From an uncultured Bacteroidota bacterium (GTDB lineage Bacteria; Bacteroidota; Rhodothermia; Rhodothermales; DASSAV01): DNA of 64,000 nucleotides. Shown here one piece after another: positions 10,656-48,363 of this stretch. The translations under genes were made by a program, and so were the position numbers. The stretch is taken from assembly GCA_963790965.1 (NCBI GenBank), contig CAWBQO010000002.1:1-64000 (forward strand), written 5' to 3'. Position 1 is the stretch's first letter. Every line of letters starts with the position of its first letter. The notes under the pieces are model-generated. The model ran no database searches. It was not told the origin of the DNA and saw nothing but the letters and a program-made list of their open reading frames with translations.

Positions 10656-11697
10656 AACCTCTCCCCACGCGGTCTACAACGATAACTTCGTCAACAGAGC
10701 GCAGTCTCTCGGTTTCTCGGCTTAACCGAACACGGATGGTCGTTGGTGCTAACCGTGAACCGCACGTCGATTGTGGCGTGCATGGGACACCTCTCAGGTT
10801 AGACACCAGAGGCGCCTCCTTCCTCAGGGGAGTCAGTTACTACTGAACTCTAGCGGACTTTGCGACACGACGAATCGGTTGTAGCCCGTGCGACCGCGTG
10901 TATCTATTATGGACAGATCGATAGCATGCTCCTCACCCCATCTACAGCTCCATACCGCTAAATTTTTTCCAGCTGCGGTTATCACCTTAAGTTCATACTT
11001 CTGAGCCTGTGCTGCGATCGTTTTACTCACTTCCTCACACGTGTTCTGAGTTCCTAATAGCGGGATCTCTGTCTCGAAGGTGCAGTAGTGAATCCGAAGT
11101 TCGATCTGCTTCGGTTACTGAGAGGACATGGTGCATCGTATCGAAACCCAAACGTCATTTTGAGAGGTCAAATAGTGGTTGCTTGAGCCCTCCTGCTGTC
11201 TACCACCCGAGTGAGCGTGTCCCTCGGCGTCGGTTAATATATCATCTACAGAATGGGGACAATCCAAGGTGTGATTTACCACCCAGCCAACAAATCTGAG
11301 TCGAATTTTTGAGATGACAAAACTATATTTGTAATGTCATTCATCTAGTTCCGGACAACCTTGATAGAGCAGTGAAATCCTCGTTATAACCTATTAGTTA
11401 CTTCTTTAAATTTAATATTATAAAATTGGATAGGTAGAGTAGCAGTAGACAGAAGTAAGTCCTCACAACCGATAGTGTCGCGCCTGCAGCGAATTACAGA
11501 AGTTTGAACAGAGGACTGAGAGGAACTTAACTCGGTACATGTAGCGGGGTATATATTACCAGCAACCCACAGCGTTCAAACATACACAAAACATTCACAA
11601 AATCGTCTATTTGTCAGCCAAGTTCGCACAGAGAGAAATATTTGATGTAGATTCAAGGAGAAGCCTTATTCAGTTCCCAACCATAGATAGTCATAGT

Positions 11698-13200
11698 ATG
11701 TTCTCAGTACTTCCGTTCCAGATCAGCCTTGGGTTTTCGCTCATTCCGATACTGGTGCTGGCGCTCGCGATCATTACGGTGTACCGCTCGGTTGAAATCG
11801 TCAACGCCTACGAGAGGCGCGTGCTGACTGTCTTCGGCGAGTATCGCAAGCTACTCGAACCTGGTATCAACTTCGTCCCACCGTTCGTTTCTCGAACGTA
11901 CCCGTTCGATCTACGCACGCAGACCCTCGATATTCCACACCAAGAGGCGATCACGCGGGATAATTCGCCCGTGAGAGCAGACGCCATCGTGTACATCCGC
12001 GTAATGGACGCAAAGCGCGCATTTCTCGAGGTCGAAGATTACCACCTGGCAGTTCTAAACCTTGCTCAGACGACGTTGAGAGCGGTACTTGGAGACATGG
12101 AACTCGACGAGACATTGAGCAAACGCTCGGAGATTAATGCGCGTATCCGCCACCAGCTCGACGAACCGACTGACGAGTGGGGAATTCGCGTCGAATCCGT
12201 CGAAGTACGTGAGGTGAGCCCGTCGGAGGACGTTCAGAAGGCGATGGAACAGCAGACAGGTGCGGAACGCCGTCGCCGCGCGACAATCTTAGAAGCCCAG
12301 GGTCAACGCCGCAGCGCTATCGAGCAAGCGGAGGGGAATAAAAAAGCCGCGGTCATCAATGCACAGGGCCAAAAACAGAGTCAGATCTTGGAAGCACAGG
12401 GTGACGCAATCTCGATCGTCCTTCGTGCGCGAGCTGCCGAGTCGATGGGTGAGCGTGCGATCATCGAGAAAGGGATGGAGACGCTTCAATCGATCGGCGA
12501 AAGTGACGCGACGACGTTTGTTCTTCCCCAAGAACTCACTTCGCTGTTCGGCCGGTATGCGAAGCACCTCACCGGTAGCGACCTGCAACAACTGAACGGC
12601 CACGACCTCGACAGCCGGGGATTCGATTCCGAGACGCGCGAACTCCTCGGACTCGACAATATCGCAGGGATCCTTGGTGAAATCGACCAGGAAGCCGAAG
12701 TCGATATTGAGGCGCTAGAAAAGGAGGCTGAAGCAATCAAAACAGGTGGTGAAGTAGACCCAGAGGAAGACAACGCTACTAGGCTGGTAACGAATCGGAG
12801 ACTGAAGCCGTCGATAGGTCCGATGAATTCACTGCCGATACTGGATCCTCTCCAGAGCACGGCGTGGACAGTGATACAACGCGCGAAGAACGCACAAAAC
12901 CAACGGACGAGTCGAGTTCCTCCCACGCTGAACAGTAGGTACGGACTCTCGATAGGAGTGGAACCGATGTGGAGACTGTGTCGAACGAGATGCGGCGCTT
13001 CGTGCCAATTGTGTCTGGAGTGTGTACTTCCACCGTACTCGGAAGCGAATGACTCAGCGTCGTCACCGGAGTTATCCCCCGCTCATTGGAGGGATTACCA
13101 CACAGCGGCCTCCCTCTTATCCGTCGTGTTCGGAGTCGCTACGACGGTGATATTACAGCACCAGTCTGTGAATAGTGATGAATCCGTCTGTCGGTGCTAG
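11698..13200 (+). CDS. SPFH/band-7 (stomatin-like) membrane protein; C-terminal ~140 aa atypical (Cys-rich, possible frameshift read-through)
   Basis: N-terminal TM then SPFH core (RVLTVFGEYRKLLEPGINFVPPF…TRDNSPVRADAIVYIRVMDAKRA…) and EAQG/NAQG coiled-coil repeats. Start taken at the Met just before the TM helix. Confidence 0.6.
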   Translation: MFSVLPFQISLGFSLIPILVLALAIITVYRSVEIVNAYERRVLTVFGEYRKLLEPGINFVPPFVSRTYPFDLRTQTLDIPHQEAITRDNSPVRADAIVYIRVMDAKRAFLEVEDYHLAVLNLAQTTLRAVLGDMELDETLSKRSEINARIRHQLDEPTDEWGIRVESVEVREVSPSEDVQKAMEQQTGAERRRRATILEAQGQRRSAIEQAEGNKKAAVINAQGQKQSQILEAQGDAISIVLRARAAESMGERAIIEKGMETLQSIGESDATTFVLPQELTSLFGRYAKHLTGSDLQQLNGHDLDSRGFDSETRELLGLDNIAGILGEIDQEAEVDIEALEKEAEAIKTGGEVDPEEDNATRLVTNRRLKPSIGPMNSLPILDPLQSTAWTVIQRAKNAQNQRTSRVPPTLNSRYGLSIGVEPMWRLCRTRCGASCQLCLECVLPPYSEANDSASSPELSPAHWRDYHTAASLLSVVFGVATTVILQHQSVNSDESVCRC

Positions 13201-15418: not shown

Positions 15419-17455
15419 GTGAGCGAATCCGACCGTCGCCGCCAAGAGCAACGGAGAGACATAGCAATGTCAAACACAGGAAACCCAAACGAACACCACG
15501 TGGAAAGTCCGACAGCGCCGACTACGAGAGCGCCGACCGACCGATCGAACGACGAACAGACGACGCAGACGGACCTCCTGGGCGGGTTACAGATCAATTC
15601 GACGGCCGACATACGGGTACCGAAGCGTCTCGTCGATCAGGTCATCGGACAGGAACATGCCCGCGACATCGTCATGAAGGCGGCCAAACAACGGCGCCAC
15701 GTCATGCTGATCGGATCGCCCGGGACGGGGAAATCGATGCTCGGGAAGGCCATGGCCGAACTCCTCCCGAGAGAGGAGCTACAGGACGTTCTCGTCTCGT
15801 ACAACCGTGACGATCCGAACCGACCGCACGTTCGGACGGTTCCGGCGGGTGACGGGAGAGGGATCGTCGAGATCCACAAAAATGAAGCGCGCAAGCGGAG
15901 GGGAACGCGATCAATGATGTTGTGGATACTCCTCATCGCGATTCTGGGGTACGCGCTGCTCATCGCGAACAATCTCCTGATGGGAATGCTGGCTGCCGGA
16001 ATCGTAGTCATCATCTTCGGGCTCAACAACAGCCGACAGACCGTTCTCGTTCCGAATCTTCTGATCAACAACGGGCATCGAAAGACGGCTCCGTTCGAGG
16101 ACGCGACGGGTACCCACGCCGGTGCACTACTCGGTGACGTCCGCCACGACCCGTTTCAGTCCGGCGGGATGGAGACTCCGAGCCACGATCGCGTCGAAGC
16201 TGGTGAGATCCACAAGGCGAACAAAGGCGTGCTGTTCATCGACGAGATCAACACCCTCGACGTCCGCTCGCAACAACACCTGATGACCGTGATTCAGGAG
16301 GGCGAGTTCAGCATCACGGGCCAATCCGAGCGGTCTTCCGGGGCGATGGTCAAGACCGAACCCGTCCCGGCAGATTTCGTCATGATCGCCGCGGGCAACG
16401 TTGATGCGATGGAGAACATGCATCCAGCACTCCGGAGCCGACTCAAGGGATACGGATACGAAGTCTATATGGACGACACGATCCCGGATACATCTGAGAC
16501 GCGCCGGAAGTACGCCCGGTTCATCGCCCAGGAAGTCGTTAAGGACGGTCGAATCCCGCACTTCGATCGACGTGCAGTAAATGAGATACTCCTCGAAGCT
16601 CAGCGACGATCCGGTCGACAGGGGTATCTGACGCTCGAACTACGGGACCTCGGTGGACTTGTCCGCGTCGCTGGAGACATCGCTCGTACTGATGGTTCGG
16701 TGTTCGTTACCCGGGATCACGTCCTGCAGGCGAAGGGTCGCTCGCGCTCCATTGAGCAACAATTCGCCGATGACTACATCGAACGCCACAAAGACTACGA
16801 ACTCGCCGTCAACGAAGGATATGCGGTCGGTCGCGTCAACGGACTTGCTGTCTTGGGCGAAGACTCCGGGATCGTGTTACCGGTGATAGCCGAGGTGACG
16901 CCGTCACAGAGCTCGGGTGATCTCATCGTCACTGGGAGATTACGAGAAATCGCCGTCGAGGCGGTTCAGAACGTCTCGGCGGTCATCAAGAAACTCTCCG
17001 ATGCGGGCCTGAACGAGCAGGATGTGCACGTGCAGTTCCTTCAGACAGGTGCTGGTGTCGACGGCGACTCGGCATCTGTCACGGTCGCCACGGCGGTCAT
17101 TAGCGCGCTCGAAGACGTTGCCGTCGATCAGAGCCTCGCCATGATTGGTTCGCTGTCGGTCCACGGAGACGTCCTCCCCGTCAACGGAGTGACGTACATG
17201 ATCGAGGCTGCCGCGAAAGCTGGATTGAAACGCGTCGTCGTTCCGAGGGCGAACCTCCAAGATGTCCTCATCGAAGACGAATTCCGCGAATTGGTCGAGA
17301 TCATCCCCGTCTCCGATCTCAGCGAAGTTCTCAACGCTGCACTCGAAGGCACACCCGAGAAACGGTCGCTTGTCGGCCGGTTCGACCACCTAACCGATCC
17401 GCCGACTACTCGACCATTCATATTCGACCCTGGACGGAGTCCAAGTCCACGATAG
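15419..17455 (+). CDS. lon: Archaeal-type ATP-dependent Lon protease (LonB, membrane-anchored)
   Basis: Walker A LIGSPGTGKSML, two TM helices inserted in the AAA domain, C-terminal S16 proteolytic domain (DGDSASVTVATAVISAL…LAMIGSLSVHGDVLPVNG). GTG start at 15419; alternative ATG at 15467. Confidence 0.8.
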   Translation: MSESDRRRQEQRRDIAMSNTGNPNEHHVESPTAPTTRAPTDRSNDEQTTQTDLLGGLQINSTADIRVPKRLVDQVIGQEHARDIVMKAAKQRRHVMLIGSPGTGKSMLGKAMAELLPREELQDVLVSYNRDDPNRPHVRTVPAGDGRGIVEIHKNEARKRRGTRSMMLWILLIAILGYALLIANNLLMGMLAAGIVVIIFGLNNSRQTVLVPNLLINNGHRKTAPFEDATGTHAGALLGDVRHDPFQSGGMETPSHDRVEAGEIHKANKGVLFIDEINTLDVRSQQHLMTVIQEGEFSITGQSERSSGAMVKTEPVPADFVMIAAGNVDAMENMHPALRSRLKGYGYEVYMDDTIPDTSETRRKYARFIAQEVVKDGRIPHFDRRAVNEILLEAQRRSGRQGYLTLELRDLGGLVRVAGDIARTDGSVFVTRDHVLQAKGRSRSIEQQFADDYIERHKDYELAVNEGYAVGRVNGLAVLGEDSGIVLPVIAEVTPSQSSGDLIVTGRLREIAVEAVQNVSAVIKKLSDAGLNEQDVHVQFLQTGAGVDGDSASVTVATAVISALEDVAVDQSLAMIGSLSVHGDVLPVNGVTYMIEAAAKAGLKRVVVPRANLQDVLIEDEFRELVEIIPVSDLSEVLNAALEGTPEKRSLVGRFDHLTDPPTTRPFIFDPGRSPSPR

Positions 17456-17697: not shown

Positions 17698-18234
17698 TCA
17701 GGATCTGTTCGTCCTCGTAGATCCTGTTGTCGGCTCTGTCAAAGTCGAACTCACCGAAGCCGTGCCTTCGGGCGAGTTCGACGACCTTGCTGCCGTGCTC
17801 GCGCACGTGTGCGCGAGACAGTGTTTGCTCGTCCTCGTCGTCGGTATCAGTTTCTTCTGGGTCGATAGGAACCAGTGCGTCCGGGATAACGTCGTGATGC
17901 GTGCTTCAAGTGCAATTCCTCGTGCAGCAGCGTCGAGCGTCGTCTTGGTTTGCTCACTGAACTGCTCCCATGCGTAGGAGATATTCTGTTGAGTCGGTAC
18001 TTTGCTCAAACCCAGTCCTTTCAGCAGTGACGGTCGATTCGCAAGCCGATCTGCGACCTCGCTCTGGGCGAGGTCGTAGATCGACTGGTAGATGTAGACC
18101 CGTGCCATCGACTCCGTATCGAAGGTCACCTTGTGCTGCTGGCGGTCATCGGTAAGTGGCTCAGTCGGAATTGAGACATCAGAAATGACACGCCAGAGGT
18201 GATCTGTAGTCTCGCAAAGTTTCTGGTCAACCGC
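17698..18234 (-). pseudogene. IS4-family transposase N-terminal fragment (related to 34057..35733), 3' truncated
   Basis: …FDTESMARVYIYQSIYDLAQSEVADRLANRPSLLKGLGLSKVPTQQNISYAWEQF aligns with YEMDTLFRLFVLKELHGWDHETALVEYLKRRSVIREQLGIELIPDQSTLWRSW of the intact copy. The N-terminal part of the ORF as called by the track is a shadow of the opposite-strand fragment. Confidence 0.4.
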
Positions 18235-19128
18235 CGAGTCCGTGAGTACGGTAGCAAACTCGGTGACTTCGTTCGTGATCGTCTTTCCGGGATTAACGCA
18301 GACACTGTCGTTCCTGACGGAACGAAGTGTCATAGCCAGCAAGACCACTGCTCCTACCACGATATCAATATCACCCTCGGACAAACGACCAAGAGTGACG
18401 ACACAGAAACCACACTCTTAGACGTCAACGTCAACGAATCATGGGAGGAGACAGTGAAAACGCTTGAAGAGACTGAGGCAGTCACTGACGACGCAACGGT
18501 CGTCAGTGACGCCGAGGAGGCTCTCGTCGATGCGTTCGAGAGTGACGACCGATCTCACCAGCTCGACCTTGTTCACGTCGGCCGAACGCTTGGGTACAAG
18601 CTCTGGGAAGACGATACATTTCCGCTCAGGGAGCGGAAAGCGATCGTCTCTGGGGTCATGAGCGATCTGTTTCACCTGAAGAACTCGGTGGCGCTGCACG
18701 CACCGAAGAACGAGCGTTTGGCGATCCGCTCACGGATCGACCAAACGCTGGAGAACCTCCAGAAGGAAGCTTGGCGGTTAGAGCGTCAAAAGTCCCCGAA
18801 AGCTGCAGCGTATCTACGAGATTGGGCAAAAGCAACGGTGACGTTCGCGGAACTTACGCTTGAGCACCAGCAGGTCCCGTGGACGTCGAACGTGGTCGAA
18901 CGAGCCATGGGTGAAGTTTCAAAACGGTGTAAGAATCAGTGGATGCGGTGGTCAGAATCTGGGTTAGAGTCGCTTCTCTGGTTGAATCTCGTGAGATACG
19001 CCAATCCCGAGCAGTTCGCGGCGTTCGCCGACGAACTGCTCGAGCGCTCAGCCAAAACAGCCATCACAATGGAGGTGTCAGTTGAGGCTACCAGAGGCGA
19101 ACTCTAGACGACTTTGAGACGGGACCAA
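18232..19128 (+). pseudogene. ISH-type transposase C-terminal fragment (same family as 22268..23605), 5' truncated, right inverted repeat retained
   Basis: Collinear similarity from RRVREYGSKL to the C-terminus (…VPWTSNVVERAMGEVSKRCKNQWMRW…EATRGEL). Right inverted-repeat-like ctctagacgactttgagacgggacc at ~19104..19128. Confidence 0.6.
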
Positions 19129-19715
19129 TTATTCTGAAGTTCTTGACGAAGTTCGTGCAGCTTTTCTGGGGCTTTCCTCGCTTTGTTAATTCGATCCAAA
19201 GACTGGATGACTGAATCAACTACGAGTCGATCTGTTGGATCATGAACTAAGGAATTTCGGGTTTTCCGAACGTCGTGGATCAGACCGTGAGTACCTGATT
19301 CAATCAGCCCCATGTCATAGGCGAGTTCGATTTTCTCGTTAAATGAATACTTTCCAATCCAGTCATCAGCTTGATCTCGACTCCGGTATGGTTCAGCAAT
19401 AATATTATCTCGTAGAATCACATGTAACTGCTCATCCATAATTCCAGAGCTGATTATAAACAAGGCAACCAGTTTCTGAGTGAGTGGGCGCGGTAGAATA
19501 TCAATCTCTGGTACTTCTTCACCTTCAATCTCAAACTCACTTTCTCTTTCTCGTCGTTCTTCTACTTGCTTTTGAACCTGGCTTATCCCTTCACGGATTT
19601 CTTGTGTAAGCTCTTTTAATTCACCACGATGCGAATGGTGAACTGTTTTCGAACCATGAGCACCCCGATATCTCAGTAGGACGTTTTCCCATAAATCATT
19701 CTCAAGAGATTCCAT
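19104..19715 (-). CDS. hypothetical protein with a HEPN-like R-x4-H motif (VRKTRNSLVHD) and an N-terminal coiled coil
   Basis: 203 aa; coiled-coil acidic N-terminus; C-terminal helical region with RNSLVH matching the HEPN Rx4-6H signature; low-GC island. Confidence 0.3.
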   Translation of the reverse strand: MESLENDLWENVLLRYRGAHGSKTVHHSHRGELKELTQEIREGISQVQKQVEERRERESEFEIEGEEVPEIDILPRPLTQKLVALFIISSGIMDEQLHVILRDNIIAEPYRSRDQADDWIGKYSFNEKIELAYDMGLIESGTHGLIHDVRKTRNSLVHDPTDRLVVDSVIQSLDRINKARKAPEKLHELRQELQNNWSRLKVV

Positions 19716-20017
19716 ATTTGCTCTATTAGAGAGAAGTCAACTCACATTAACTTAACTAATAGAATATAATCGGATGTGACAATACACAATATACATCGTG
19801 ATGGTGTCAATAGAAAGGATACAGCCACGAAATAGTGATATAAAATTAATCCACCAATGAGGGGCTCTCAGGCATAGTGATTTGTCTGTACCTAGCGCGA
19901 GAGTACAATATGCGTAGCGATCACAAGAAGTCACCTTCTGCTGAGTTCTAAGCCGGCGATAGAACAACTACGCTCAGGGACATACATTATTGAGTTAAAT
20001 ATAATCATTGCTCCCAA

Positions 20018-21190
20018 TCAGTATCCAGTATAAAATTGGATATTTGCTTGATTGGACATCTTATATGCCGGCCATCCTATCCCATAATTGTATAAATTGT
20101 TGTTACAAGCTGTGCCAATTTTGGAACCATTGGGAGTCTGAGTAGCTATGCTAACCATATAGCATTTAGGTGGGTCTCCGTTAGACACAAAGTGAAATAC
20201 TGGTGCTCCCGAATCACCATCTGCTTGATTATTAGTGACTTTTACGCCAGCACCATCCATACTAATACAATTTGATCCGTTACTAACATTACTATTCGTA
20301 CTCGCAACTCTGCCAGTTGTTTTCCCGGATGATATTCCAATTTTCGTTACTTGTTCATAGGAAGTAACCATCCGATTAATTTTATACTCAGTATAATGAC
20401 CACCAATTCCATATCGACTCCCGTCCGGGAATTGAATCCGTCCATTGTAGTTAATCCCATTTGAATTATTTTTGGCTACAATACACCAATCATGGACATT
20501 GTTCCATCGTGCTGGCTCACCATACTTCCGATTTGAATGGTCATTCATACTTTGATAAGCGGTATGTCCTCCTAATCCTTCACATGACCCATTACCACCA
20601 CCATTGAAAAATACATGAGCGCAATTTAACATATAGAAGTTCCCATTTCGCTTTACCCGACAACTAGTAGTCGAGTGATATATTTTTCCACCTCCGGCAT
20701 GTGAATTGGCGATTCCACCAGACATACTACTATAGGTCCCTCGATTCGCACACGTTGAACGGGTTTCTTCTGCTTCAATTATCCTAATTGGTACTCCGTT
20801 CGAACTTGAGGGGTGACGATCCGCTGCTGCTGATTGGTTGTGCGCACCAATACGGATCTCGAACCCTCTAACATCATCTTCAATATAATCAGATGATGCC
20901 CCGATCTCAACATGAGATATGTTCTCATCAACTGCTGTCTTTTTCTGTAGATGATGAGTGACTTCTTTAGCAGTATTATACATATTGTACCACTTCTTCG
21001 ATACTTTTTCTGTTTCTATAACTTCTGTCCCTCTCTTTGCAGTGGGAATCTTAACATAATTTCCACTTCCGGTTGCAGAGGCGACCGTCACGTTCAGACC
21101 TCCTATACTTGTGATCCCGGAACCTGCTCCAACTGCTTTTAGAAAACTTCGTTTGCTAATTTTCCTATGATTATTCTGGTCGTCAACCAT
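20018..21190 (-). CDS. Secreted trypsin-like (S1 family) serine protease candidate with Tat-type signal
   Basis: N-terminal KRSFLKAVGAG Tat-like signal; candidate catalytic triad contexts LNCAHVF (His), DWCIVA (Asp), GDSGAPVF (Ser); Asn/Gly/Ser-rich; low-GC region. Confidence 0.45.
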   Translation of the reverse strand: MVDDQNNHRKISKRSFLKAVGAGSGITSIGGLNVTVASATGSGNYVKIPTAKRGTEVIETEKVSKKWYNMYNTAKEVTHHLQKKTAVDENISHVEIGASSDYIEDDVRGFEIRIGAHNQSAAADRHPSSSNGVPIRIIEAEETRSTCANRGTYSSMSGGIANSHAGGGKIYHSTTSCRVKRNGNFYMLNCAHVFFNGGGNGSCEGLGGHTAYQSMNDHSNRKYGEPARWNNVHDWCIVAKNNSNGINYNGRIQFPDGSRYGIGGHYTEYKINRMVTSYEQVTKIGISSGKTTGRVASTNSNVSNGSNCISMDGAGVKVTNNQADGDSGAPVFHFVSNGDPPKCYMVSIATQTPNGSKIGTACNNNLYNYGIGWPAYKMSNQANIQFYTGY

Positions 21191-21448
21191 ATCTATTCAT
21201 ACAGTCAACAGTTATATAATATTATTTAATTGAATAATATATTCTGCTAACAGGAATTGCAGCCTTATATAATAATATGCCAATTCAGTACCAATATATG
21301 TGGCAGGTGGCCTATACCATGCGCTTAATTCATAACAATAAAACTGTAAATTCCCACCAATAATATCATTTTGGTTGTGAATTTAAAAGGGTCAAACACG
21401 CATTTGTGTTACCACAATTCATATGCTCTATGTATCCCTATTATATCC

Positions 21449-22087
21449 ATGAAACGACGTACTGCATTGAAATTACTAAGCGTATCATCAGTGGGACTAG
21501 CTGGGTGTATTGCAAATGGAGCAGTGAACAGCGACTCGAATGACTCTCAATCAAACACTCAGAGTCCGCCTACTAAAGAGACAAACACTACAATAGAAAA
21601 AAGTGATGCAACTATGGATATCTCCAAATCAATTGAGATTGTAAACACCAATTCAGCACCATCTTCGTTCGGCATTTCATTCACTATTAAACCAGTTATT
21701 GAGACGATTACTCCAAAACATACCCCACAAGTGGAAGTCACTATGGAAAACGAGACTAATCATAAATTAAAATTGAATAGTGGTTCTCTCACACAAACTA
21801 GTACAAATAGTAACGGAGCAGGCCTTCTTATTGTCGAGGGTGATACTATTCAAGCACCTGATTGTAGCCATTATGAGGCATCAATTTCACCCGATTCAGT
21901 TACACAAACGTTTAGCAGTAATGAAAAAAGTTCAACGATCTATACGTTAAAAAACGACCCTAGTTCAAATGGCTGTTTTGAAACAGGAACTTACCGATTC
22001 TCGAATACGTACACAAAGAGCGGAAGCGGAAATCGTCGCGCCTTTAAGTGGTATTTTTCGATCAAAGTCAAAAAAACTCATCAGTGA
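21449..22087 (+). CDS. Tat-lipoprotein (lipobox LAGC) of unknown function, Ser/Thr/Asn-rich
   Basis: MKRRTALKLLSVSSVGLAGC signal with RR and lipobox cysteine; an inverted-repeat hairpin (atagaca…tgtctat) lies at 22110..22140 just downstream. Confidence 0.45.
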   Translation: MKRRTALKLLSVSSVGLAGCIANGAVNSDSNDSQSNTQSPPTKETNTTIEKSDATMDISKSIEIVNTNSAPSSFGISFTIKPVIETITPKHTPQVEVTMENETNHKLKLNSGSLTQTSTNSNGAGLLIVEGDTIQAPDCSHYEASISPDSVTQTFSSNEKSSTIYTLKNDPSSNGCFETGTYRFSNTYTKSGSGNRRAFKWYFSIKVKKTHQ

Positions 22088-22176
22088 TGTTGTGTCAGTC
22101 AAATAGACAATCTCAAAGGCACTGTCTATTGGTGCTTCAATCATCAACTGAGACGGGATAGAGCCTACGCAATTTA

Positions 22177-23626
22177 ACGGTCGTGTCTCAAAGTCGTCTA
22201 GAGTTTAGTAGCAACTGACTCCCGTAAGGACGGGGTCACCTCTGGTGTCCAACCCACGAGGTACCCCATGCACGCCACAATCGACGTGCGGTTCACGATT
22301 AGCATCGACGACCACAAAACGATACCGCTCGCCACCCTCGCTGAGTTCCTTACCGACCAGAACGTTGAATCCGTTCTTCTTGAAGAACTCGTCGAGAGCC
22401 TCGACGCGAGTCGCGTCGAGGCGCTCTGTGGCCAGAAACACGCCCACGGCAACGGGAATCAACGCTTCCAACGCGCCGGCACCGATACCCGCACAGCCGT
22501 CACAACCGCCGGTGAACACGAATTCACCCTTCACTACGTCGAAGATACCGCCGCAGACCACGATGAATCCAGCTATTTCCGGCCCGTCGAAGACGTTCTC
22601 GGCTTCGACGGGCAAAACCGCTATCAACAGGATATTGCCGCCAAGAGCGTCGATCTCGCTACTTCGCTCAGCTACCGTGACGCTGCCGATCACGGCGACG
22701 GCATCGGGCCGATGCCGTCGCCGACCACCATCAACCGCCGCGCCAGAGAATACGGCAGCAAGCTCAAGCAGTTCCTTCCGGAGTGTGTCGCTGGCACAGA
22801 CACTGACGCCGTCATTGCTGACGTCACGAAGTGTCACAGCCAAGACGACGACCGCTCGTACCACTCCGCCCAAGCCACACTCGGCGAAGACACCGCCGAA
22901 GAATCTCGCTCTCTGCTGGATCTGTCGGTTAACACTGACTGGGACGAGACAGCTGCCGATCTCGATGACATCAATGCAGTCACTGACGACGCCACGGTCG
23001 TCAGTGACGCTGATGAGGGCATCGTTACGGCGTTTACCGACGAAACTCGTGATCACCAACTCGATCTCGTCCACGTCGGTCGGACGCTAGATTACAACCT
23101 CTGGGATGATGGCGTGTTCTCCTTGGACCGCCGCAACAAGATCGTCTCTGAGGTGATCGACGAGGTATTTCATCTGAAGAACTCGGTCACCAAGCACCGT
23201 CCAGAAGAAGAGTTCGCGGCGATCCACGAGCGGATCGCGCGAACGACCGAGCGTATCGAGAAGACAGCGTGGCAACTGGAGCAGTTCGGGTCAGAGAAGG
23301 CTGCAGGGTACCTTCGGCGGTGGTTGCCGTCAATTGTGACGTTCGCCGAGCATGCCGTCAAGGGGTTCGAGGTGCCGTGGACCTCGAACCCCGTTGAACG
23401 GCTGATGGGCGAGGTCAGCAAGCGATGCAAGAATCAGTGGATGCGCTGGACAGCGGATGGATTAAAGGCGTTGCTCCAGCTTCGGCTGGTGAAGTACGCT
23501 GATCCAGCGTACTACCAGTTGTTCTTCGACGGCCTTCTCCAGCGATCGACCAAAACAGCAATGAGCTGTGACCTCTCAATTGAGAGTACCAGAGGCAAAC
23601 TCTAGACCGCTTTGCAACACGACCAA
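22177..23626 (+). mobile_element. Intact ISH-type insertion sequence (~1.45 kb; size and 25-bp inverted repeats reminiscent of the ISH6 family)
   Basis: Inverted repeats ggtcgtgtctcaaagtcgtctagag (22179..22203) and ctctagaccgctttgcaacacgacc (23600..23624); single 445-aa transposase ORF inside. Confidence 0.7.
22268..23605 (+). CDS. ISH-type transposase (445 aa)
   Basis: Full-length ORF; two truncated paralogs in this window (7690..8221 minus strand, 18232..19107 plus strand); conserved C-terminal VPWTSNPVERLMGEVSKRCKNQWMRW. Confidence 0.7.
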   Translation: MHATIDVRFTISIDDHKTIPLATLAEFLTDQNVESVLLEELVESLDASRVEALCGQKHAHGNGNQRFQRAGTDTRTAVTTAGEHEFTLHYVEDTAADHDESSYFRPVEDVLGFDGQNRYQQDIAAKSVDLATSLSYRDAADHGDGIGPMPSPTTINRRAREYGSKLKQFLPECVAGTDTDAVIADVTKCHSQDDDRSYHSAQATLGEDTAEESRSLLDLSVNTDWDETAADLDDINAVTDDATVVSDADEGIVTAFTDETRDHQLDLVHVGRTLDYNLWDDGVFSLDRRNKIVSEVIDEVFHLKNSVTKHRPEEEFAAIHERIARTTERIEKTAWQLEQFGSEKAAGYLRRWLPSIVTFAEHAVKGFEVPWTSNPVERLMGEVSKRCKNQWMRWTADGLKALLQLRLVKYADPAYYQLFFDGLLQRSTKTAMSCDLSIESTRGKL

Positions 23627-23713
23627 AAAATCATCGATACGATTGGTACTGCGACAGGAAAGGGCGATTGAGAGGTAATCTGAAGCAGTACCCAATCACG
23701 GATACGTTCGATA

Positions 23714-23756: not shown

Positions 23757-24131
23757 CGACGATGCGCAGAAGTTGAGACCGATCTTCTCAATGCATGCGT
23801 TCGGTTCAGCCTCCATGACGTGTTAGCACTGCACAGCAGCTACACAGTTGGCGAACCACTCTGGAACGACATCACTCGGATTCAGTTCAGATAGGGCCGT
23901 CACCTCAGCCGGCGCGTTCGTTGAGCGGACTGCTGGGAGAACAGGTGACTCCCCCACCCCACGTCACCCCGGGAAGCGGGCACGGCTACGGCGCGCCCGA
24001 CGAACGCAGAGTGAGATTGCGCTCTATAACCGCACAACCAATCAGCCCCTGATTTACTTCTCATCACGTCATTCACTCCCATTGCCGGGAGACAGGCATA
24101 ACCGCCTAGCCCTCCTCTACTAGAGTTACTC

Positions 24132-25340
24132 ATGGATATCTCCGAGATCCTCTTCACGAAGTTCACCGAGTTCGATATTGGGACGCCGCTCTCGAAGGTC
24201 GCCGGCGCATTCGAGAATCAAGAACTCAATGCCGTCGTGGTGACTGACGGTGACGAGTATCGTGGTGTCGTCAGCCGCCGACAGTTGGCTTCCTCGTCCA
24301 ATCAACCCTCTGCAAAGGTCGGCTCACAAGCCCAGCACGTCCCGACCGTCGACCGCACAGAGGACGTTCGGGAGGTTGCGCGGCTCATGATTGGTAGCGA
24401 CGCCAAAACGCTTCCCGTGCTGGATAACGACCGTCTCGTCGGTGTGGTGACCGCAGATGCTGTCCTTGAGGCTGTCCGCCCCTTCCTCAACGCGGTGACT
24501 GTCAAGGACGCGTATTCATCGAAGTTAGTCAGTGCGACCCCCAAGACGACAATCGGAAAAGCCCTCCACATGCTTCGGGAATCCGGTATCGCCCACCTCC
24601 CTGTTATCGACGGAGACGACCTCGCGGGGATCGTAAGCCTGTACGACGTTATCGAGTTTACGACGCGAGGCGGTAGTAAGAGCCAGGGTGGATCGTCGGG
24701 GAGTTTCGGTGGCCGCGGACGCTCTAAGAGGAGTCACGGTGGATTCGGTGCCCGTGAGGGCGACTCCGACCGGATGCTCGATCTGCCGGTCCGGAACCTG
24801 ATGTCTGATGCAGTTGTGACGGTCCGGCGAAGCGCCCCGCTCGACGAGGTCGTCGAAACGATGTTCGAACGTGAGATCTCCTCGCTTGTCGTCACAGCCG
24901 ACCAAACAGGCGACCCAGTCGGTATCATCACAAAGACGGACGTCATTGAGGCGCTTACCTGGGAACGCGACGACCGGAACGCCGTGCAAGTGTTCGGACT
25001 CGACTTGCTAGAGGGAATGGACTACGACGACGTCTCCGCGTTGATCGAGAGTGTAACCTCGAAGTACGGCGAGATGAGCGTCATCCAGGCCAGTATCGAA
25101 CTGCAGGAGCATAAGGAACAGAGCCGGGGCGTACCATTAGTGCTGGCACGGATTCGGCTGGTCACCGACCGTGGCTACTTCACGGCCGATGGCGAAGGCT
25201 ACGGTGCCTCCCATGCCCTCCGACTCGCCGCGAACGCGATCGAACGCCAACTCCTCAAGGGGAAGACGTACGGCCAATCGAAGAAGCAATCCGACCCCGA
25301 GGCTCAAGAGCACCTCTACGGGTGGTGGCTCGGCGGGTAA
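24132..25340 (+). CDS. CBS-domain protein (two CBS pairs) with a C-terminal alpha/beta domain
   Basis: Four CBS-like repeats (…VVVTDGDEYRGVVSRRQL…, …LPVLDNDRLVGVVTADAVL…, …LPVIDGDDLAGIVSLYDVI…, …LVVTADQTGDPVGIITKTDVI…). Confidence 0.6.
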   Translation: MDISEILFTKFTEFDIGTPLSKVAGAFENQELNAVVVTDGDEYRGVVSRRQLASSSNQPSAKVGSQAQHVPTVDRTEDVREVARLMIGSDAKTLPVLDNDRLVGVVTADAVLEAVRPFLNAVTVKDAYSSKLVSATPKTTIGKALHMLRESGIAHLPVIDGDDLAGIVSLYDVIEFTTRGGSKSQGGSSGSFGGRGRSKRSHGGFGAREGDSDRMLDLPVRNLMSDAVVTVRRSAPLDEVVETMFEREISSLVVTADQTGDPVGIITKTDVIEALTWERDDRNAVQVFGLDLLEGMDYDDVSALIESVTSKYGEMSVIQASIELQEHKEQSRGVPLVLARIRLVTDRGYFTADGEGYGASHALRLAANAIERQLLKGKTYGQSKKQSDPEAQEHLYGWWLGG

Positions 25341-35930: not shown

Positions 35931-37086
35931 ACACCGAAGAAATTGTCTATCGCAATATACAGTATATAGAATCGGATTACAGTGGCTTCGTGCTCATAAC
36001 CTATGAATTCGGCCATATTCGAGTTTAGCCAATCACTATGTATTACCCCTGTTGTACACAGTAGATTTAGGTGGGTCCCCGCTGTCGGTCACTCACGAAC
36101 GATGGAACCCACTGAAGACGACTCTACCCCAAGGGAAAATCCGAATCAAGACCGCCATCTAGCAGTATCTCGACAGCGTAGAGGCTGGCAACTCTCGGAA
36201 GAACTTCTAATCTACGCTGGTAGCGTGGCAGCACCTTTACATTAAGAATATGAAATGATGATCTTCTAAAATTTGGATATTTGTTAATATCTACGGTGCG
36301 TTCAGGACCATAATAGTTTTTTAACGGTTTCTAATTGGAAATGAGTTCTTAAGTGTACAAAAATGGATGCTTATATACATTACAACTTTGTCTGGCTGAG
36401 GAGTTCCTTGAGACAAATCCAACGAAGGAAATGTGGGCCACGGACGAAATCTCAAAAGACCTTGACGATGCAGATCGTCAGTTCTGGTAGCAAGAGGGAC
36501 GGCCCCAATCCTGTATGATATAGACAAGAATACACAATATCGTAAGGTGAAAATACAAACATAACAAATACAATATAATTCTTGATCGGTCAATTATCTA
36601 TTTCTAGCCCCTCAGGTACCCAGGGAATAGAGGTGTTCGAAGGACCCTCAGATTAAAATCAGACTAGCATCTCAGGGGTAATTTGGAACATGATATCGGT
36701 GCCTTTTGGTCTTCTTTCTTCACCGACGAGTGGCCAGTCTCTCCGAGTGCACACACGCATCCAGTATCGTGCCGTACGCATTCACCGGTCCCAACAGGTG
36801 TTCTGAATGAGAAGGTTGAGAGAATTATCAATAATTAGTAAATAGAGGTTATGATGTGAAAGCACAATATTACCTCACCGAACAGCACTCGGAACCTTAT
36901 TAGGACTACTCCAATCATCTGAGGAGCAATGAACGATGTCAGACGCCATATATTTCGAACAAATTTCCGATATTAGGGCCAAAATTGTGGACAATAACGA
37001 GGTTAACAAGACTATTTGAGGTGATATTTTGATTTCCAAGCGGTTGGGCATCAATTTAAGGGTGAAACATCACTTGAACCAGACTA

Positions 37087-42095: not shown

Positions 42096-42792
42096 ATTTC
42101 TTGATCTTGAGGACATTACTTTGAGTTGATGAAAACGATTCATCTGCAACCATGAATCGATTCTAAGTCCTCTAGCTCTTATGTCTATTATTGATCCTAC
42201 TTTGGTTTATCGGTGAAATCGTCAATAATTCACCCCTAGGAGAGATTGCGGCTATTTAGTCAATATCCGAATAACTCGGATCAGAGCTATTGACCTTGGC
42301 TTTATTTGGGAGATCACACCGTCAAAAAATCCTTAGCAAGAAGAGACTGGAGCACTTGATAGCAGGACCAAAAGCATCTCAGGCCCCTTCTTCTCACTTG
42401 AAATTGAGTCACCCATTAATAGATAAATCCAGAAATCAGTGATCTTATTCATTGACCGGGAGTATTTTCAGCATATTTTACTCAATGTAATAGAGTCAGA
42501 TTAGGTAGAATTCGGTATTAACACCATTGGTCAGCCAATCCGAATAATTCGGATGATAATTGCTAGGTATATTGGTCTTCGTTACATATCTATACGTGTA
42601 ACGGGACGTGATACGTTAACAATCGAGGAGCAAAAGGCGGCGATAAAGTAAACTTTGGAATCACAAATGAAATAAGTCTAGTTGACTTCCGAATCCGAAT
42701 ATATGGGACTCAAGAGAAATTTAAATTGATCTCAATTTCATTGGTCGCTCCGAGGAGTAAATTAGGGAATTGGTCCCTGAGGAGATCACCCT

Positions 42793-43500
42793 TTACTCGA
42801 TTTGATGGGCCGGAAATGCTGATGGCACCAATAGCGGTACCATTGGTATCCGTAATGGGGACTCCAACTCCATTAAGTCGTTGAACAGATTCCTCAAGAT
42901 TGAACGCATACCCCGTTCGGCGATTTGGTCCAGTTCTTCGAACAGCTGCTCCTGATCGATGATTGTTTCTCCGGTTTGGGGAGGGAGACCATACTTTCTA
43001 ACAATCTCACTCACACGTTCTCGCGAAAAAGTTGAGAGAATTGCCTTACCGGCGGCGAGCTGATGGAGATAGCCGAACTGCCCCTCCCGTGCATTGGTCT
43101 GAACAGAGTGACGACCGGATGCACCGTAGAGATGGATACTCCGACCGTGTTCCTCGGTCACACACCAGACCTTTTCATTTGTTTCCTTAGCTAACTCGTC
43201 TACCTTTGGTACTGCAACATGATAGAGGTCGCATTGTCGCCGAGAATGCAAGCCAAAATCCAGCATTCGAAGCCCAATCCGATATCGTCCATTGTCAACC
43301 GTTACGAGATCAAGATCCTCTAAGGTGTGTAGGTGACGGTGGATAGTGCTCCGAGAGGGATCTAGCGCTCCAGCTAATTCAGCTAGCGTGACTTCATCGC
43401 GCTTCTTGATCTCAGTGAGAATTTTGTTTGCGGTTTCGACTGTCTTTACAGGTCGGGACGGAGTGGTTGGCATATATTGACAGTCATTTTGCTTCTTCAT
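42793..43500 (-). CDS. IclR-family transcriptional regulator
   Basis: N-terminal wHTH (LAELAGALDPSRSTIHRHLHTLEDLDLV) plus C-terminal IclR effector domain; alternative start at 43473. Confidence 0.7.
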   Translation of the reverse strand: MKKQNDCQYMPTTPSRPVKTVETANKILTEIKKRDEVTLAELAGALDPSRSTIHRHLHTLEDLDLVTVDNGRYRIGLRMLDFGLHSRRQCDLYHVAVPKVDELAKETNEKVWCVTEEHGRSIHLYGASGRHSVQTNAREGQFGYLHQLAAGKAILSTFSRERVSEIVRKYGLPPQTGETIIDQEQLFEELDQIAERGMRSILRNLFNDLMELESPLRIPMVPLLVPSAFPAHQIE

Positions 43501-48350: not shown

Positions 48351-48363
48351 CTTCGGTCCTTAT

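What the first reader, a model, noticed from the sequence alone, without database searches (positions are those of the whole stretch)
19104..22176. Low-GC island carrying a Tat-secreted S1-like serine protease, a Tat lipoprotein and a HEPN-like protein, bracketed by two same-family insertion sequences
GC here drops visibly to roughly 40% by eye against ~48% in the surroundings. The 390-aa protein has a twin-arginine-like signal (KRSFLKAVGAG) and sequence contexts matching the chymotrypsin-fold triad (LNCAHVF, DWCIVA, GDSGAPVF), with a long N-terminal pro-region. Secreted S1-type proteases are unusual in haloarchaea, where halolysin-type subtilases dominate. Immediately upstream and divergent is a Tat lipoprotein (lipobox LAGC) of unknown function that could be a cognate inhibitor, immunity or anchoring partner. 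The third gene has a coiled coil plus an Rx4H HEPN-like motif. The composition and insertion-sequence bracketing indicate horizontal acquisition. This could be a secreted antagonistic or digestive module with a defence-type RNase.
Basis: partly seen in the sequence, partly recalled or inferred. Interest (0 to 1): 0.6.

Follow-up and report, generated by a model that had tools for sequence, protein, structure and literature searches.

The report
Haloarchaeal S1 protease with lipoprotein partner
A 3-kb AT-rich piece of foreign DNA wedged between two insertion sequences in a haloarchaeal replicon carries a secreted chymotrypsin-fold serine protease and a membrane-anchored lipoprotein that repeatedly sits beside such proteases elsewhere; the protease identity is solid, while the partner's role and the third 'HEPN-like' gene remain unproven.

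Summary
Window 19127-22178 is a 39.7% GC island in 55% GC flanks, bounded exactly by the inward-facing ends of two ISH6-family insertion sequences.

- **Lipoprotein.** The divergent gene is a true Tat lipoprotein (RR plus LAGC). Homologues flank related proteases in 6 further places, and other lipoproteins flank more distant ones, about 10 of 17 loci in total. A functional pair is therefore supported, but its role as inhibitor, anchor or substrate is only inferred.
- **Third gene.** It is a strict orphan. Its Rx4H motif is expected by chance (57% of shuffles), its DUF4145/HEPN match is sub-threshold, and its last 7 codons lie inside the IS end.
- **Mobility.** The IS pair is not a functional composite transposon.

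This is a new variant of a known kind, of moderate interest.

The parts
17698..18384 (-). Fragmentary IS5-like (DUF772) transposase ORF abutting and overlapping the truncated 5' side of the left ISH6 copy. It is IS debris marking a rearranged region.
   Evidence: Pfam DUF772 E 0.0015, below threshold. Similarity between the two ISH6 copies begins only at 18227.
18199..19126 (+). Left ISH6-family insertion sequence, 5'-truncated. The transposase ORF 18199-19107 covers profile positions 149-412 of 414. The right terminal inverted repeat is at 19102-19126.
   Evidence: NCBIfam NF041731 ISH6 transposase, 255 bits against a cut-off of 240. The IR match has 2 mismatches to the right copy's IRL. DNA identity to the right copy is 70-77%.
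19104..19715 (-). Gene A: an orphan 203-aa acidic cytoplasmic protein with an N-terminal charged helical region and a C-terminal segment with weak DUF4145/HEPN-like similarity. Codons 197-203 and the stop codon lie inside the IS inverted repeat, so the native 3' end has been replaced.
   Evidence: Only itself in 5.8 billion proteins. No hit in plasmids, viral contigs or metagenome contigs. DUF4145 E 0.19 and phrog_5483 E 0.002, both on residues 122-179. PADLOC none. GC1/2/3 of 0.61/0.31/0.36 is a coding-like pattern. IS end at 19126.
20018..21190 (-). Gene B: a 390-aa Tat-exported chymotrypsin-fold (S1, streptogrisin/alpha-lytic-like) serine protease precursor.
21074..21190 (-). Tat signal peptide of B (residues 1-39): S-K-R-S-F-L-K motif, a weakly hydrophobic h-region, and ASA at 37-39 as the likely signal-peptidase site.
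   Evidence: The family N-terminal consensus is RRxxL. 112 of 130 near-full-length members have RR, and this is the only KR. pLDDT is below 50 for residues 1-40. The cleavage site is inferred by eye.
20777..21058 (-). N-terminal domain of B (residues about 45-138): beta-beta-long helix-beta-beta, then a short helix and strand. It is either a pro-region-like or a NAL1-like accessory domain. A low-confidence linker follows at residues 139-155.
   Evidence: Model secondary structure, with pLDDT 85-96 here and below 50 at residues 140-145. Foldseek aligns NAL1 over about 370 columns. NAL1 domain description from PMC12012508. No PDB or Pfam sequence relatives. A stand-alone copy exists in L007.
20021..20725 (-). 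Catalytic double-beta-barrel domain of B (residues 156-390). Catalytic codons are His192 at 20615-20617, Asp234 at 20489-20491 and Ser327 at 20210-20212.
21191..21448 (.). 258-bp very AT-rich divergent intergenic region between B and C, presumed to hold both promoters. A TTATATAA lies about 21-29 nt upstream of B's ATG.
   Evidence: Sequence read directly. The promoter assignment is inference only.
21449..22087 (+). Gene C: a 212-aa Tat lipoprotein with RR at residues 3-4, lipobox LAGC with Cys20 (codon 21506-21508), a Ser/Thr/Asn-rich linker, and a domain of about 150 aa with two invariant cysteines (C139, C176). It belongs to an uncharacterised family that recurrently neighbours the protease family.
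   Evidence: Homologue P0152 at 51% identity. Family alignments A3 and A6. Adjacency census. No PDB or Pfam match.
22172..23631 (+). Right ISH6-family insertion sequence, complete. IRL 22172/22179-22206, transposase 22268-23605, IRR 23597-23631. There is no matching target-site duplication.
   Evidence: NCBIfam NF041731, 376 bits, profile positions 2-412. Inverted repeat pair I1. Flanking 8-mers differ.

Best explanation
Window 19127-22178 is horizontally acquired, AT-rich accessory DNA in a haloarchaeal secondary replicon. It is bounded by two ISH6-family elements and carries a two-gene module.

**Gene B** encodes the precursor of a secreted chymotrypsin-fold serine protease of the streptogrisin/alpha-lytic type. 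The proposed mechanism has these steps:
1. The protein folds in the cytoplasm with its N-terminal domain (residues about 45-138) attached. [shown: fold and domain layout]
2. It is exported already folded by the Tat pathway through an S-K-R-S-F-L-K signal. [inferred from the motif and from RR in 112 of 130 relatives]
3. The signal is removed near Ala39. [inferred]
4. The N-terminal domain acts as folding helper and/or inhibitor, and is cut off at the flexible junction (residues 139-155). This releases a catalytic domain of about 235 residues that hydrolyses peptide bonds with His192/Asp234/Ser327. [triad shown by conservation and alignment; processing inferred by analogy with S1E enzymes]

**Gene C**, transcribed divergently, encodes a Tat lipoprotein anchored on the outer face of the membrane. 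Homologous or analogous lipoprotein genes sit next to related proteases in many independent loci and in every orientation. It is therefore a functional partner. [association shown] It most likely binds the protease at the producer's surface as a self-protecting inhibitor or immunity factor. [inferred, low confidence]

**Gene A** is an orphan whose 3' end was replaced by the IS. It is not shown to belong to the module.

The module probably arrived, or was rearranged, by IS-mediated recombination rather than by transposition of a composite transposon.
For: **Composition and boundaries.** The island is 39.7% GC against 55.2% in the flanks, and GC3 is 0.31-0.36 against about 0.70. IS ends lie exactly at both borders. 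The right IS has no target-site duplication.

**Protease.**
- 381 family clusters by exhaustive HMMER.
- H192 and S327 invariant and D234 in at least 90% across 124 sequences, with consensus YMLTAxH / DxA / GDSGGP.
- 51 of 124 members hit Pfam Trypsin_2 and 19 hit Trypsin.
- The family profile hits streptogrisin B/A, S. fradiae protease and Glu-specific protease at E about 2e-9. The alignments begin at mature residue 1 and align the catalytic motifs.
- The MSA-based model has pLDDT 85 and pTM 0.81.
- RefSeq names relatives 'S1 family peptidase' and 'trypsin-like peptidase domain-containing protein'.

**Tat.** RR in 112 of 130 relatives.

**Partner.**
- C-like genes are adjacent to proteases in the window, L005 (twice), L009, L025 and L027, with a weak one in L011.
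- Unrelated lipoproteins are adjacent in L014, L029 and L030.
- In total that is about 10 of 17 loci.
- Four of the five informative nearest relatives carry the pair.
- Paired C-like genes share the protease's low GC, whereas unpaired ones have host-like GC.
Against: **Function in this host is uncertain.**
- The window protein itself gets no Pfam or NCBIfam protease hit.
- Its Tat motif is KR, the only such case in 130.
- It is the least halophile-like member of its family: D+E 7.7% (rank 2 of 142) and net basic.

**Processing is unproven.**
- The N-terminal domain has no sequence similarity to the alpha-lytic pro-region or any propeptide family.
- Its best structural match, NAL1, keeps the equivalent domain.

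**The partner's role is open.**
- 7 plasmid C-like genes have no protease within 4 kb, and several proteases have no lipoprotein neighbour.
- Nothing identifies C as an inhibitor. There is no PDB hit, and BsuPI appears only at E 0.15 in one member.
- A metagenome variant has a 5-bp deletion in C's lipobox next to an intact protease gene. That is awkward for an essential immunity role.

Confidence: 0.6

Rival explanations
1. The lipoprotein is not an inhibitor. It is instead a surface anchor or maturation factor for the protease, or its dedicated substrate: a precursor that the protease cleaves to release an active fragment, as in the halolysin-HapP protease-precursor antagonism system.
For: The adjacency evidence shows association, not direction of effect. 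Proteolytic activation of secreted precursors into antagonistic peptides is documented in haloarchaea for halolysin HlyR4 and HFX_0892 (PMC12893001). Gene C has a long Ser/Thr/Asn-rich linker that would be protease-accessible.
Against: The HapP effector is an alpha-helical N-terminal peptide, whereas C is lipid-anchored and appears beta-rich, with two invariant cysteines. Partner lipoproteins at different loci are non-homologous. That pattern is more typical of rapidly diversifying inhibitor or immunity proteins than of a conserved foldase or anchor.
Confidence: 0.25
2. The N-terminal domain is not a cleaved pro-region. It is a permanent regulatory or oligomerisation domain, as in plant NAL1. 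On this reading the enzyme works as a cell-associated, possibly caged oligomeric protease with restricted substrates, rather than as a freely diffusing digestive enzyme.
Against: S1E homologues with which the catalytic domain aligns from mature residue 1 are all made as pre-pro-enzymes (established knowledge of alpha-lytic protease and streptogrisins). The linker at residues 140-145 is the only low-confidence internal segment, as expected for an exposed processing site. Tat export of an already folded protease requires some means of keeping it inactive in the cytoplasm. NAL1 is a cytoplasmic/nuclear ATP-binding hexamer, and none of those properties was tested here.
Confidence: 0.3
3. The island is decaying cargo with no current function. 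On this reading it is AT-rich junk trapped between IS elements, whose genes are drifting towards pseudogenes in this host.
For: Gene A is truncated by the IS. B has a KR Tat motif and a non-acidic, FYMINK-rich composition that is extreme for its family. A natural 5-bp frameshift variant of C exists. The closest protease homologue, P0002, is itself 5'-truncated by an IS. The region is full of IS debris.
Against: B and C are intact full-length ORFs that retain every invariant family residue: H192, D234, S327, G328 and the conserved cysteines in B, and RR, the lipobox, C139 and C176 in C. Identical copies of B occur in two further sequencing runs. Low GC is a general property of this gene family, in 12 of 16 loci, and not a sign of local decay.
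Confidence: 0.15
4. This is the first reader's three-gene module: a secreted antagonistic protease, its immunity lipoprotein and a HEPN-type defence RNase acting together.
For: The three genes share low GC and lie within one IS-bounded segment. DUF4145 is a recognised HEPN family (PMC3710099). Two independent weak hits, DUF4145 at E 0.19 and phrog_5483 at E 0.002, fall on the segment that holds RNSLVH.
Against: Gene A has no homologue in any collection searched. It therefore never co-occurs with the B-C pair in any of the other 16 loci. The Rx4H motif is expected by chance in 57% of shuffles. There is no PADLOC hit. A lacks a signal peptide and is truncated by the IS, and no known mechanism links a cytoplasmic RNase to a secreted protease.
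Confidence: 0.05

Closest known systems
Streptogrisin A/B, Streptomyces fradiae protease, alpha-lytic protease, Lysobacter L1/L5, NAPase (MEROPS family S1, subfamily S1E; bacterial secreted pre-pro serine proteases)
   Different: Sequence identity is only 13-19%. The catalytic domain is about 40 residues longer, with insertions (residues 195-222). The cysteine pattern differs: there is no Cys after the catalytic His, and the conserved cysteines are C147, C203 and C308. Export is by Tat rather than Sec. The N-terminal domain has no detectable similarity to the alpha-lytic pro-region. The family is archaeal (Halobacteria) and mostly plasmid-borne.
Rice NARROW LEAF 1 (NAL1) serine protease (PDB 7y77, 8pn2, 8has and others)
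   Different: NAL1 is an intracellular plant protein that binds ATP in the equivalent domain and forms a hexameric cage (PMC12012508). It has additional N- and C-terminal regions and no signal peptide. The ATP-binding residues and oligomerisation were not tested here. Overall rmsd is high (4-8 A).
Halolysins (subtilisin-like S8 proteases such as SptA and HlyR4), the characterised extracellular proteases of haloarchaea
   Same: Both are Tat-exported serine protease precursors of Halobacteria with an N-terminal extension that must keep the folded enzyme silent before export. Both have a plausible role in nutrition or antagonism (PMC6085418 and PMC12893001).
   Different: The fold and clan are unrelated (subtilisin SB against chymotrypsin PA), so this is functional analogy only. 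In the papers I searched here I did not see halolysins described with an adjacent lipoprotein partner.
Protease-inhibitor gene pairs with compartment-anchored inhibitors (for example ecotin, Streptomyces subtilisin inhibitor, Bacillus BsuPI)
   Same: A small secreted or anchored beta-rich protein with a disulfide is encoded in genomes that make or meet serine proteases. The partner lipoproteins here are diverse and non-homologous between loci, as immunity or inhibitor proteins often are.
   Different: There is no significant sequence match to any inhibitor family: BsuPI at E 0.15 in 1 of 12 members, and no PDB hit. Inhibition is untested. This comparison rests on my own knowledge of those systems and is a lead, not a test.

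Membership tests
MEROPS S1 (clan PA) chymotrypsin-fold serine peptidase, S1E-like | Two six-stranded beta-barrels of the chymotrypsin fold | tested here: met
MEROPS S1 (clan PA) chymotrypsin-fold serine peptidase, S1E-like | Catalytic triad in the order His, Asp, Ser, within conserved motifs | tested here: met
   H192 and S327 are invariant and D234 is present in at least 90% of 124 sequences. G325-D326-S327-G328 is conserved. The HMM alignment places these on TAGH, D and GDSGG of 2sfa and streptogrisin B.
MEROPS S1 (clan PA) chymotrypsin-fold serine peptidase, S1E-like | Spatial juxtaposition of the three catalytic side chains and the oxyanion hole | not testable with these tools
   The model coordinates were not exposed to scripts. 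Only indirect support is available, from the 2.0 A superposition on active enzymes.
MEROPS S1 (clan PA) chymotrypsin-fold serine peptidase, S1E-like | Match to curated sequence models (Pfam Trypsin or Trypsin_2) at gathering score | tested here: inconclusive
   The window protein has no hit even at E of 1 or below. Among relatives, 51 of 124 hit Trypsin_2 and 19 of 124 hit Trypsin at E of 0.01 or below. The family profile reaches PDB S1E enzymes at E 2e-9.
MEROPS S1 (clan PA) chymotrypsin-fold serine peptidase, S1E-like | Serine-dependent proteolytic activity | not testable with these tools
   Requires expression and assay.
Alpha-lytic protease-type pro-region (Pfam PF02983 Pro_Al_protease) | Sequence-detectable homology of the N-terminal domain to the S1E propeptide | tested here: not met
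   No PF02983 hit in 124 full-length members or in 27 isolated N-domains. The N-domain profile finds no pro-region chain in the PDB.
Alpha-lytic protease-type pro-region (Pfam PF02983 Pro_Al_protease) | Removal of the domain on maturation | not testable with these tools
   The only evidence is a low-confidence linker at residues 140-145, and catalytic-domain alignments that begin at the mature N-terminus of S1E enzymes.
Tat (twin-arginine) substrate, protease B | S/T-R-R-x-F-L-K motif followed by a mildly hydrophobic h-region | tested here: inconclusive
   The window protein has S-K-R-S-F-L-K, with the first Arg replaced by Lys. 112 of 130 relatives have RR, and only this one has KR. Pfam TAT_signal is sub-threshold at 12 bits against 22.7.
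Tat lipoprotein, gene C | Twin arginine plus a lipobox [LVI][ASTVI][GAS]C at the end of the h-region | tested here: met
   The N-terminus is MKRRTALKLLSVSSVGLAGC. R3/R4 are nearly invariant or invariant, and the lipobox Cys is present in 10 of 12 family members. Lipidation itself was not tested.
HEPN superfamily (DUF4145-like), gene A | Significant profile match to a HEPN family | tested here: not met
   DUF4145 at E 0.19, 12.2 bits against a cut-off of 23.1. No PADLOC hit and no PDB hit.
HEPN superfamily (DUF4145-like), gene A | Rx4-6H catalytic motif | tested here: inconclusive
   RNSLVH is present at residues 153-158, inside the weak DUF4145 and phrog_5483 match. However, 57% of composition-preserving shuffles contain an Rx4H and 92% contain an Rx4-6H.
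HEPN superfamily (DUF4145-like), gene A | Four-helix up-down bundle fold | not tested
With no homologues, a single-sequence model would probably be unreliable.
ISH6-family insertion sequences | ISH6 transposase above the curated cut-off, plus terminal inverted repeats | tested here: met
   NF041731 scores 376 bits (right copy, full length) and 255 bits (left copy, positions 149-412) against a cut-off of 240. Inverted repeats.
Composite transposon | Two copies of one IS with intact outer ends, flanked by one target-site duplication | tested here: not met
   The left copy lacks about 560 bp including its outer inverted repeat. The two copies are only 70-77% identical. The right copy has no target-site duplication.
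NAL1-like proteases | Whole-chain structural similarity, including the domain preceding the protease domain | tested here: met
NAL1-like proteases | ATP binding by the preceding domain and a hexameric cage assembly | not tested
   Described for NAL1 in PMC12012508.

The most novel reading that the evidence does not exclude
The protease and lipoprotein form a mobile effector-immunity pair. On this reading, a Tat-secreted S1 protease attacks the proteinaceous S-layer or surface proteins of competing haloarchaea. The producer is shielded by a membrane-anchored cognate inhibitor, and the pair spreads among haloarchaeal plasmids as low-GC cargo. It would be a protein-weapon system analogous to bacterial toxin-immunity modules but built on an alpha-lytic-type protease. 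A corollary is that the shared N-domain-plus-protease architecture marks a prokaryotic lineage from which plant NAL1 descends.
Probability: 0.15. Interest if true: 0.7.

Novelty: new variant of a known kind. Interest (0 to 1): 0.45.

Why it matters
Work on haloarchaeal extracellular proteolysis has centred on subtilisin-like halolysins. This locus exposes a large, mostly plasmid-borne and consistently AT-rich family: 381 clusters at 50% identity.

The family consists of Tat-exported chymotrypsin-fold proteases with three unusual features:
- The N-terminal domain is new at the sequence level.
- The closest whole-chain structural relative is the plant yield gene product NAL1.
- The family repeatedly travels with small membrane-anchored lipoproteins of unknown function.

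If the lipoproteins are cognate inhibitors or immunity factors, this would be a new class of protease-inhibitor or antagonism module in archaea. It would also be a source of salt-active S1 proteases and matching inhibitors.

Even on the plain reading, the result gives database curators a family to model. The window protein currently matches no Pfam or NCBIfam protease model.

Tried and rejected
- **Single-sequence AlphaFold of the protease** gave pLDDT 31 and was discarded.
- **Word-indexed homology search** found only the protein itself, so it looked like an orphan until the exhaustive HMMER search.
- **The search for related loci** could not use any of three family alignments, because no stretch back-translated tightly enough. 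The single-protein genome scan found nothing, so the window's genome is not among the GTDB representatives.
- **The AFDB50 fold library** was unavailable.
- **DUF7983 neighbour of P0152 in L003** was tested as a possible protease and rejected.
- **Partner lipoprotein family.** Profiles of 5 and then 12 members found no PDB chain and no significant Pfam family. PADLOC and PHROGs gave nothing for B or C.
- **N-terminal domain alone** has no PDB or Pfam relatives. The dihydroneopterin aldolase hits at E about 0.6 were judged to be noise.
- **Gene A.** There were no relatives in the protein database, plasmids, viral contigs or metagenome contigs. The PDB hits to exosome Csl4 at E 0.08 fall on the low-complexity charged region and were rejected.
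- **Composite-transposon reading** was rejected (see the membership test).
- **tRNA or structured-RNA landmarks** for integration: none found.
- **A second shared partner family** among the 127-aa neighbours of L012 and L030: the two are unrelated to each other.

Full report
**1. The observation**

A composition profile shows three consecutive 1-kb windows at 0.43, 0.41 and 0.37 GC (19001-22000), between windows at 0.55-0.59.

Measured exactly between the IS ends, 19127-22178 is 39.7% GC against 55.2% for the 10 kb on each side. Third-position GC of the three island genes is 0.31-0.36, against 0.69-0.72 in the neighbouring LonB, CBS-domain and transposase genes.

The three ORFs exist as described. 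One correction applies: the lipoprotein starts at the ATG at 21449 (MKRRTALKLL...LAGC) and not at the upstream TTG. The public record of this protein is the 212-aa form.

**2. The bracketing elements**

Both flanking ORFs pass the curated NCBIfam cut-off for ISH6-family transposases.

- **Right copy.** It is complete: inverted repeats at 22172-22206 and 23597-23631, transposase at 22268-23605.
- **Left copy.** It retains only transposase positions 149-412 and its right inverted repeat (19102-19126). Its first 560 bp or so are replaced by other IS debris, including a DUF772-like ORF at 17698-18384.
- **The IR 25-mer.** It occurs only at these two inward-facing positions in the window, with none expected by chance.
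- **Relationship between the copies.** They are 70-77% identical in DNA, so they are different members of the family.
- **Target-site duplication.** The right copy has no matching one.

So the 'bracketing' is real, but this is not a functional composite transposon. The missing duplication suggests IS-mediated recombination, although preferential IS insertion into AT-rich DNA cannot be excluded.

Gene A's native 3' end has therefore been replaced.

**3. The protease (gene B, 20018-21190, minus strand)**

Curated libraries do not recognise it. A word-indexed search of 5.8 billion proteins returned only itself, and phmmer against the PDB found nothing.

An exhaustive HMMER scan of 1.84 billion cluster representatives changed the picture:
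- 381 proteins at E of 1e-3 or below, and 200 at 1e-10 or below.
- Most are 350-390 aa and match end to end.

In an alignment of 124 of them:
- His192, Ser327, Gly328 and Gly224 are invariant.
- Asp234, Gly325, Asp326 and three cysteines are present in at least 90%.
- The consensus motifs YMLTAxH, DxA and GDSGGP appear in the canonical His-Asp-Ser order.

Further support for the fold:
- 51 of 124 members reach Pfam Trypsin_2 and 19 reach Trypsin.
- The family profile hits streptogrisins A and B, the S. fradiae protease and the Glu-specific protease at E of about 1e-9 to 1e-5, and alpha-lytic protease at 9e-4.
- Those alignments start at residue 1 of the mature crystallised enzymes and superpose the catalytic motifs.
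- A single-sequence AlphaFold model was useless (pLDDT 31), but with the alignment the model reached pLDDT 85 and pTM 0.81.

The fold and triad are therefore established as far as computation allows. I could not measure triad distances, because the coordinates are not exposed.

**4. Signal and N-terminal domain**

The family N-terminus carries RRxxL. 112 of 130 near-full-length members have a twin arginine, as expected for haloarchaeal Tat substrates. The window protein has S-K-R-S-F-L-K, which is the canonical motif with the first Arg replaced by Lys. It is the only KR case among the 130. Residues 1-40 are disordered in the model, and ASA at 37-39 is a plausible cleavage site (inference).

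Residues 45-138 form a confident beta-beta-long-helix-beta-beta unit. A linker follows (140-145, pLDDT below 50), ahead of the catalytic domain.

This domain has no sequence relative in Pfam or the PDB, whether searched within the full-length proteins or alone. In particular, it does not match the alpha-lytic pro-region.

It is not demonstrated, and a retained NAL1-like domain is a serious rival. A stand-alone copy of the domain sits next to a family protease in L007 (E 7e-10), which shows that it is an autonomous module.

**5. The lipoprotein (gene C, 21449-22087, plus strand) and the pairing**

C has RR at residues 3-4, a lipobox LAGC with Cys20, a Ser/Thr/Asn-rich linker, and a domain of about 150 residues with invariant Cys139 and Cys176.

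Its one database homologue, P0152 (51% identity), lies on the same 75.8-kb metagenome contig as the closest protease homologue P0002, but 39 kb away.

tblastn and HMM searches of all fetched loci then showed C-like genes directly beside protease homologues:

| Locus | Arrangement |
|---|---|
| L005, first pair | divergent, as in the window |
| L005, second pair | tandem downstream of P0002 |
| L009 (Haladaptatus sp. DYF46) | convergent, 34 bp apart |
| L025 | tandem, 54 bp apart |
| L027 | tandem, in a 70% GC context |
| L011 | a weak C-like Tat lipoprotein 739 bp downstream |

Of the window protein's six nearest relatives, four of the five informative loci carry the pair.

More distant proteases have other lipoproteins beside them:
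- a 308-aa Tat lipoprotein 37 bp downstream in L014;
- a 264-aa Tat lipoprotein, convergent, in L029;
- a 127-aa lipoprotein 6 bp downstream in L030.

Altogether about 10 of 17 loci have a lipoprotein gene within 750 bp. From general knowledge, lipoproteins make up only a few percent of haloarchaeal genes, so this is a strong enrichment. I did not compute a formal background.

Against a strict coupling, seven plasmid-borne C-like genes have no protease within 4 kb, and several proteases have no lipoprotein neighbour.

The paired C-like genes share the protease's low GC (0.38-0.44), whereas the unpaired ones have host-like GC (0.50-0.67). The pair therefore behaves as a compositional unit.

What C does is unknown. 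Profiles of 5 and of 12 members hit nothing in the PDB. Pfam gives only isolated sub-threshold hits: DUF4232 at 0.007 and BsuPI proteinase inhibitor at 0.15, each in one member.

I favour a surface-anchored inhibitor or immunity role, for two reasons:
- The partners are diverse and non-homologous between loci.
- A cell whose envelope is a protein S-layer has an obvious need for self-protection.

This is inference. Anchor, maturation-factor and substrate or precursor roles remain open; for the last, compare the halolysin-HapP system in PMC12893001. A metagenome variant with a 5-bp deletion in the lipobox codons, next to an identical protease gene, argues that C is not strictly essential wherever B is present.

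**6. Gene A (19104-19715, minus strand)**

Gene A is acidic, has no signal peptide, and shows a coding-like GC1/2/3 pattern.

It has no homologue in the 5.8-billion-protein database, in PLSDB plasmids, in viral contigs or in JGI metagenome contigs.

Pfam DUF4145 (E 0.19) and phrog_5483 (E 0.002) both touch residues 122-179, which include RNSLVH. DUF4145 is a recognised HEPN family (PMC3710099). However, an Rx4H motif appears in 57% of shuffles of this sequence. PADLOC finds nothing, and the PDB hits are low-complexity noise.

The HEPN label is therefore possible but unsupported. Because A never accompanies the pair elsewhere and is truncated by the IS, I do not count it as part of the module.

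**7. Host, distribution and composition**

The flanking DNA matches plasmids and secondary replicons of Halomarina, Haladaptatus, Salinigranum, Natribaculum and others at 86-92% identity. No PLSDB record matches the island itself.

The protease family occurs on plasmids of Halobacterium, Halomontanus, Halorussus, Salinigranum, Halorubrum and Haloarcula. It also occurs in Haladaptatus and Halobaculum genomes, where RefSeq names relatives 'S1 family peptidase', 'trypsin-like peptidase domain-containing protein' or 'hypothetical protein'. Every named relative is a member of Halobacteria.

In 12 of 16 loci the protease gene is at least 5 GC points below its surroundings. Low GC is thus a family trait and consistent with a mobile accessory gene.

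The window copy is the compositional extreme of its family. It has D+E of 7.7% (rank 2 of 142), is net basic, and has the highest FYMINK and N+S+T content. That is odd for a protein meant to work in saturated brine, and it raises the possibility of poor function in this host.

I found no paper combining haloarchaea with alpha-lytic-type proteases in the searchable library. Reviews of haloarchaeal secreted proteases centre on S8 halolysins.

**8. Verdict**

This is a horizontally acquired, IS-flanked island carrying a Tat-exported S1 (streptogrisin/alpha-lytic-like) serine protease precursor, together with a Tat lipoprotein that is a recurrent and probably functional partner.

Three parts of the interpretation are not supported:
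- the HEPN/defence component;
- the three-gene 'module';
- the implied composite transposon.

Relative to what is known, the protease is a divergent member of clan PA family S1. Three features qualify it as a new variant of a known kind rather than something categorically new:
- a sequence-novel, NAL1-like N-terminal domain;
- Tat export;
- a recurrent lipoprotein neighbour.

Interest is moderate at 0.45. The pairing and the NAL1 link are worth following up, but the core finding is a secreted protease of a recognisable fold.

Noticed in passing
L002:230-420 (metagenome run ERR11594398), equivalent to window 21500-21512: There is a 5-bp deletion plus one substitution exactly in the lipobox codons of gene C (CTAGCTGGGTGT becomes CTA-----GTGC). 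It frameshifts the lipoprotein, while the adjacent protease gene is 100% identical. It is either a natural loss-of-function variant or an assembly error.
   Followed up: partly
L007:6684-7307 (-): A 207-aa protein with no signal peptide contains a stand-alone copy of the protease family's N-terminal domain (profile positions 36-136, E 7e-10). It is convergent with the family protease P0003. It could be a trans-acting pro-domain or inhibitor.
   Followed up: partly
window 20018-21190 and 21449-22087: Both secreted proteins are non-acidic (D+E 7-9%, K+R 10%) and very rich in Asn/Ser/Thr (27-36%). That is the opposite of the usual acidic signature of haloarchaeal extracellular proteins. The protease is the compositional extreme of its 142-member family.
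   Followed up: partly
L005:4716-6993: The closest protease homologue, P0002, lacks the signal peptide and the first strands. Similarity to the window protein runs 42 nt upstream of its called start, into the 3' end of a DDE_Tnp_1 transposase gene. That copy was therefore 5'-truncated by an IS insertion.
   Followed up: partly
L007:3613-3924, L011:5129-5734, L015:5205-6161: Winged-helix (ArsR/MarR/HVO_A0261-type) transcription regulators lie beside family proteases in three loci. Two of them are mutually similar (E 4e-25), so they may be dedicated regulators.
   Followed up: no
window 1-64000: The window crosses a compositional boundary. Positions 1-45000 average about 0.50-0.58 GC, with further AT-rich patches at 11001-12000 (0.47), 36001-37000 (0.43) and 42001-45000 (0.42-0.47). 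Positions 46000-64000 are 0.60-0.67 GC. The other AT-rich patches may be further accessory islands.
   Followed up: no
window 15419-17455 (+): A 678-aa archaeal LonB-type protease gene lies directly left of the IS debris. It is a host housekeeping gene, with no synteny across the island to the CBS-domain gene at 24132-25340 in any related plasmid found.
   Followed up: no
window 20829-20844 and 24031-24046: A perfect 16-nt inverted repeat (GCTGATTGGTTGTGCG / CGCACAACCAATCAGC) links the protease coding region to the region just upstream of the CBS-domain gene. It is probably chance.
   Followed up: no
L021:5251-6648: In Haladaptatus halobius, an unpaired C-like lipoprotein gene is followed 640 bp downstream by an M14 zinc carboxypeptidase gene. 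This is a single case of a C-like protein beside a different protease class.
   Followed up: no
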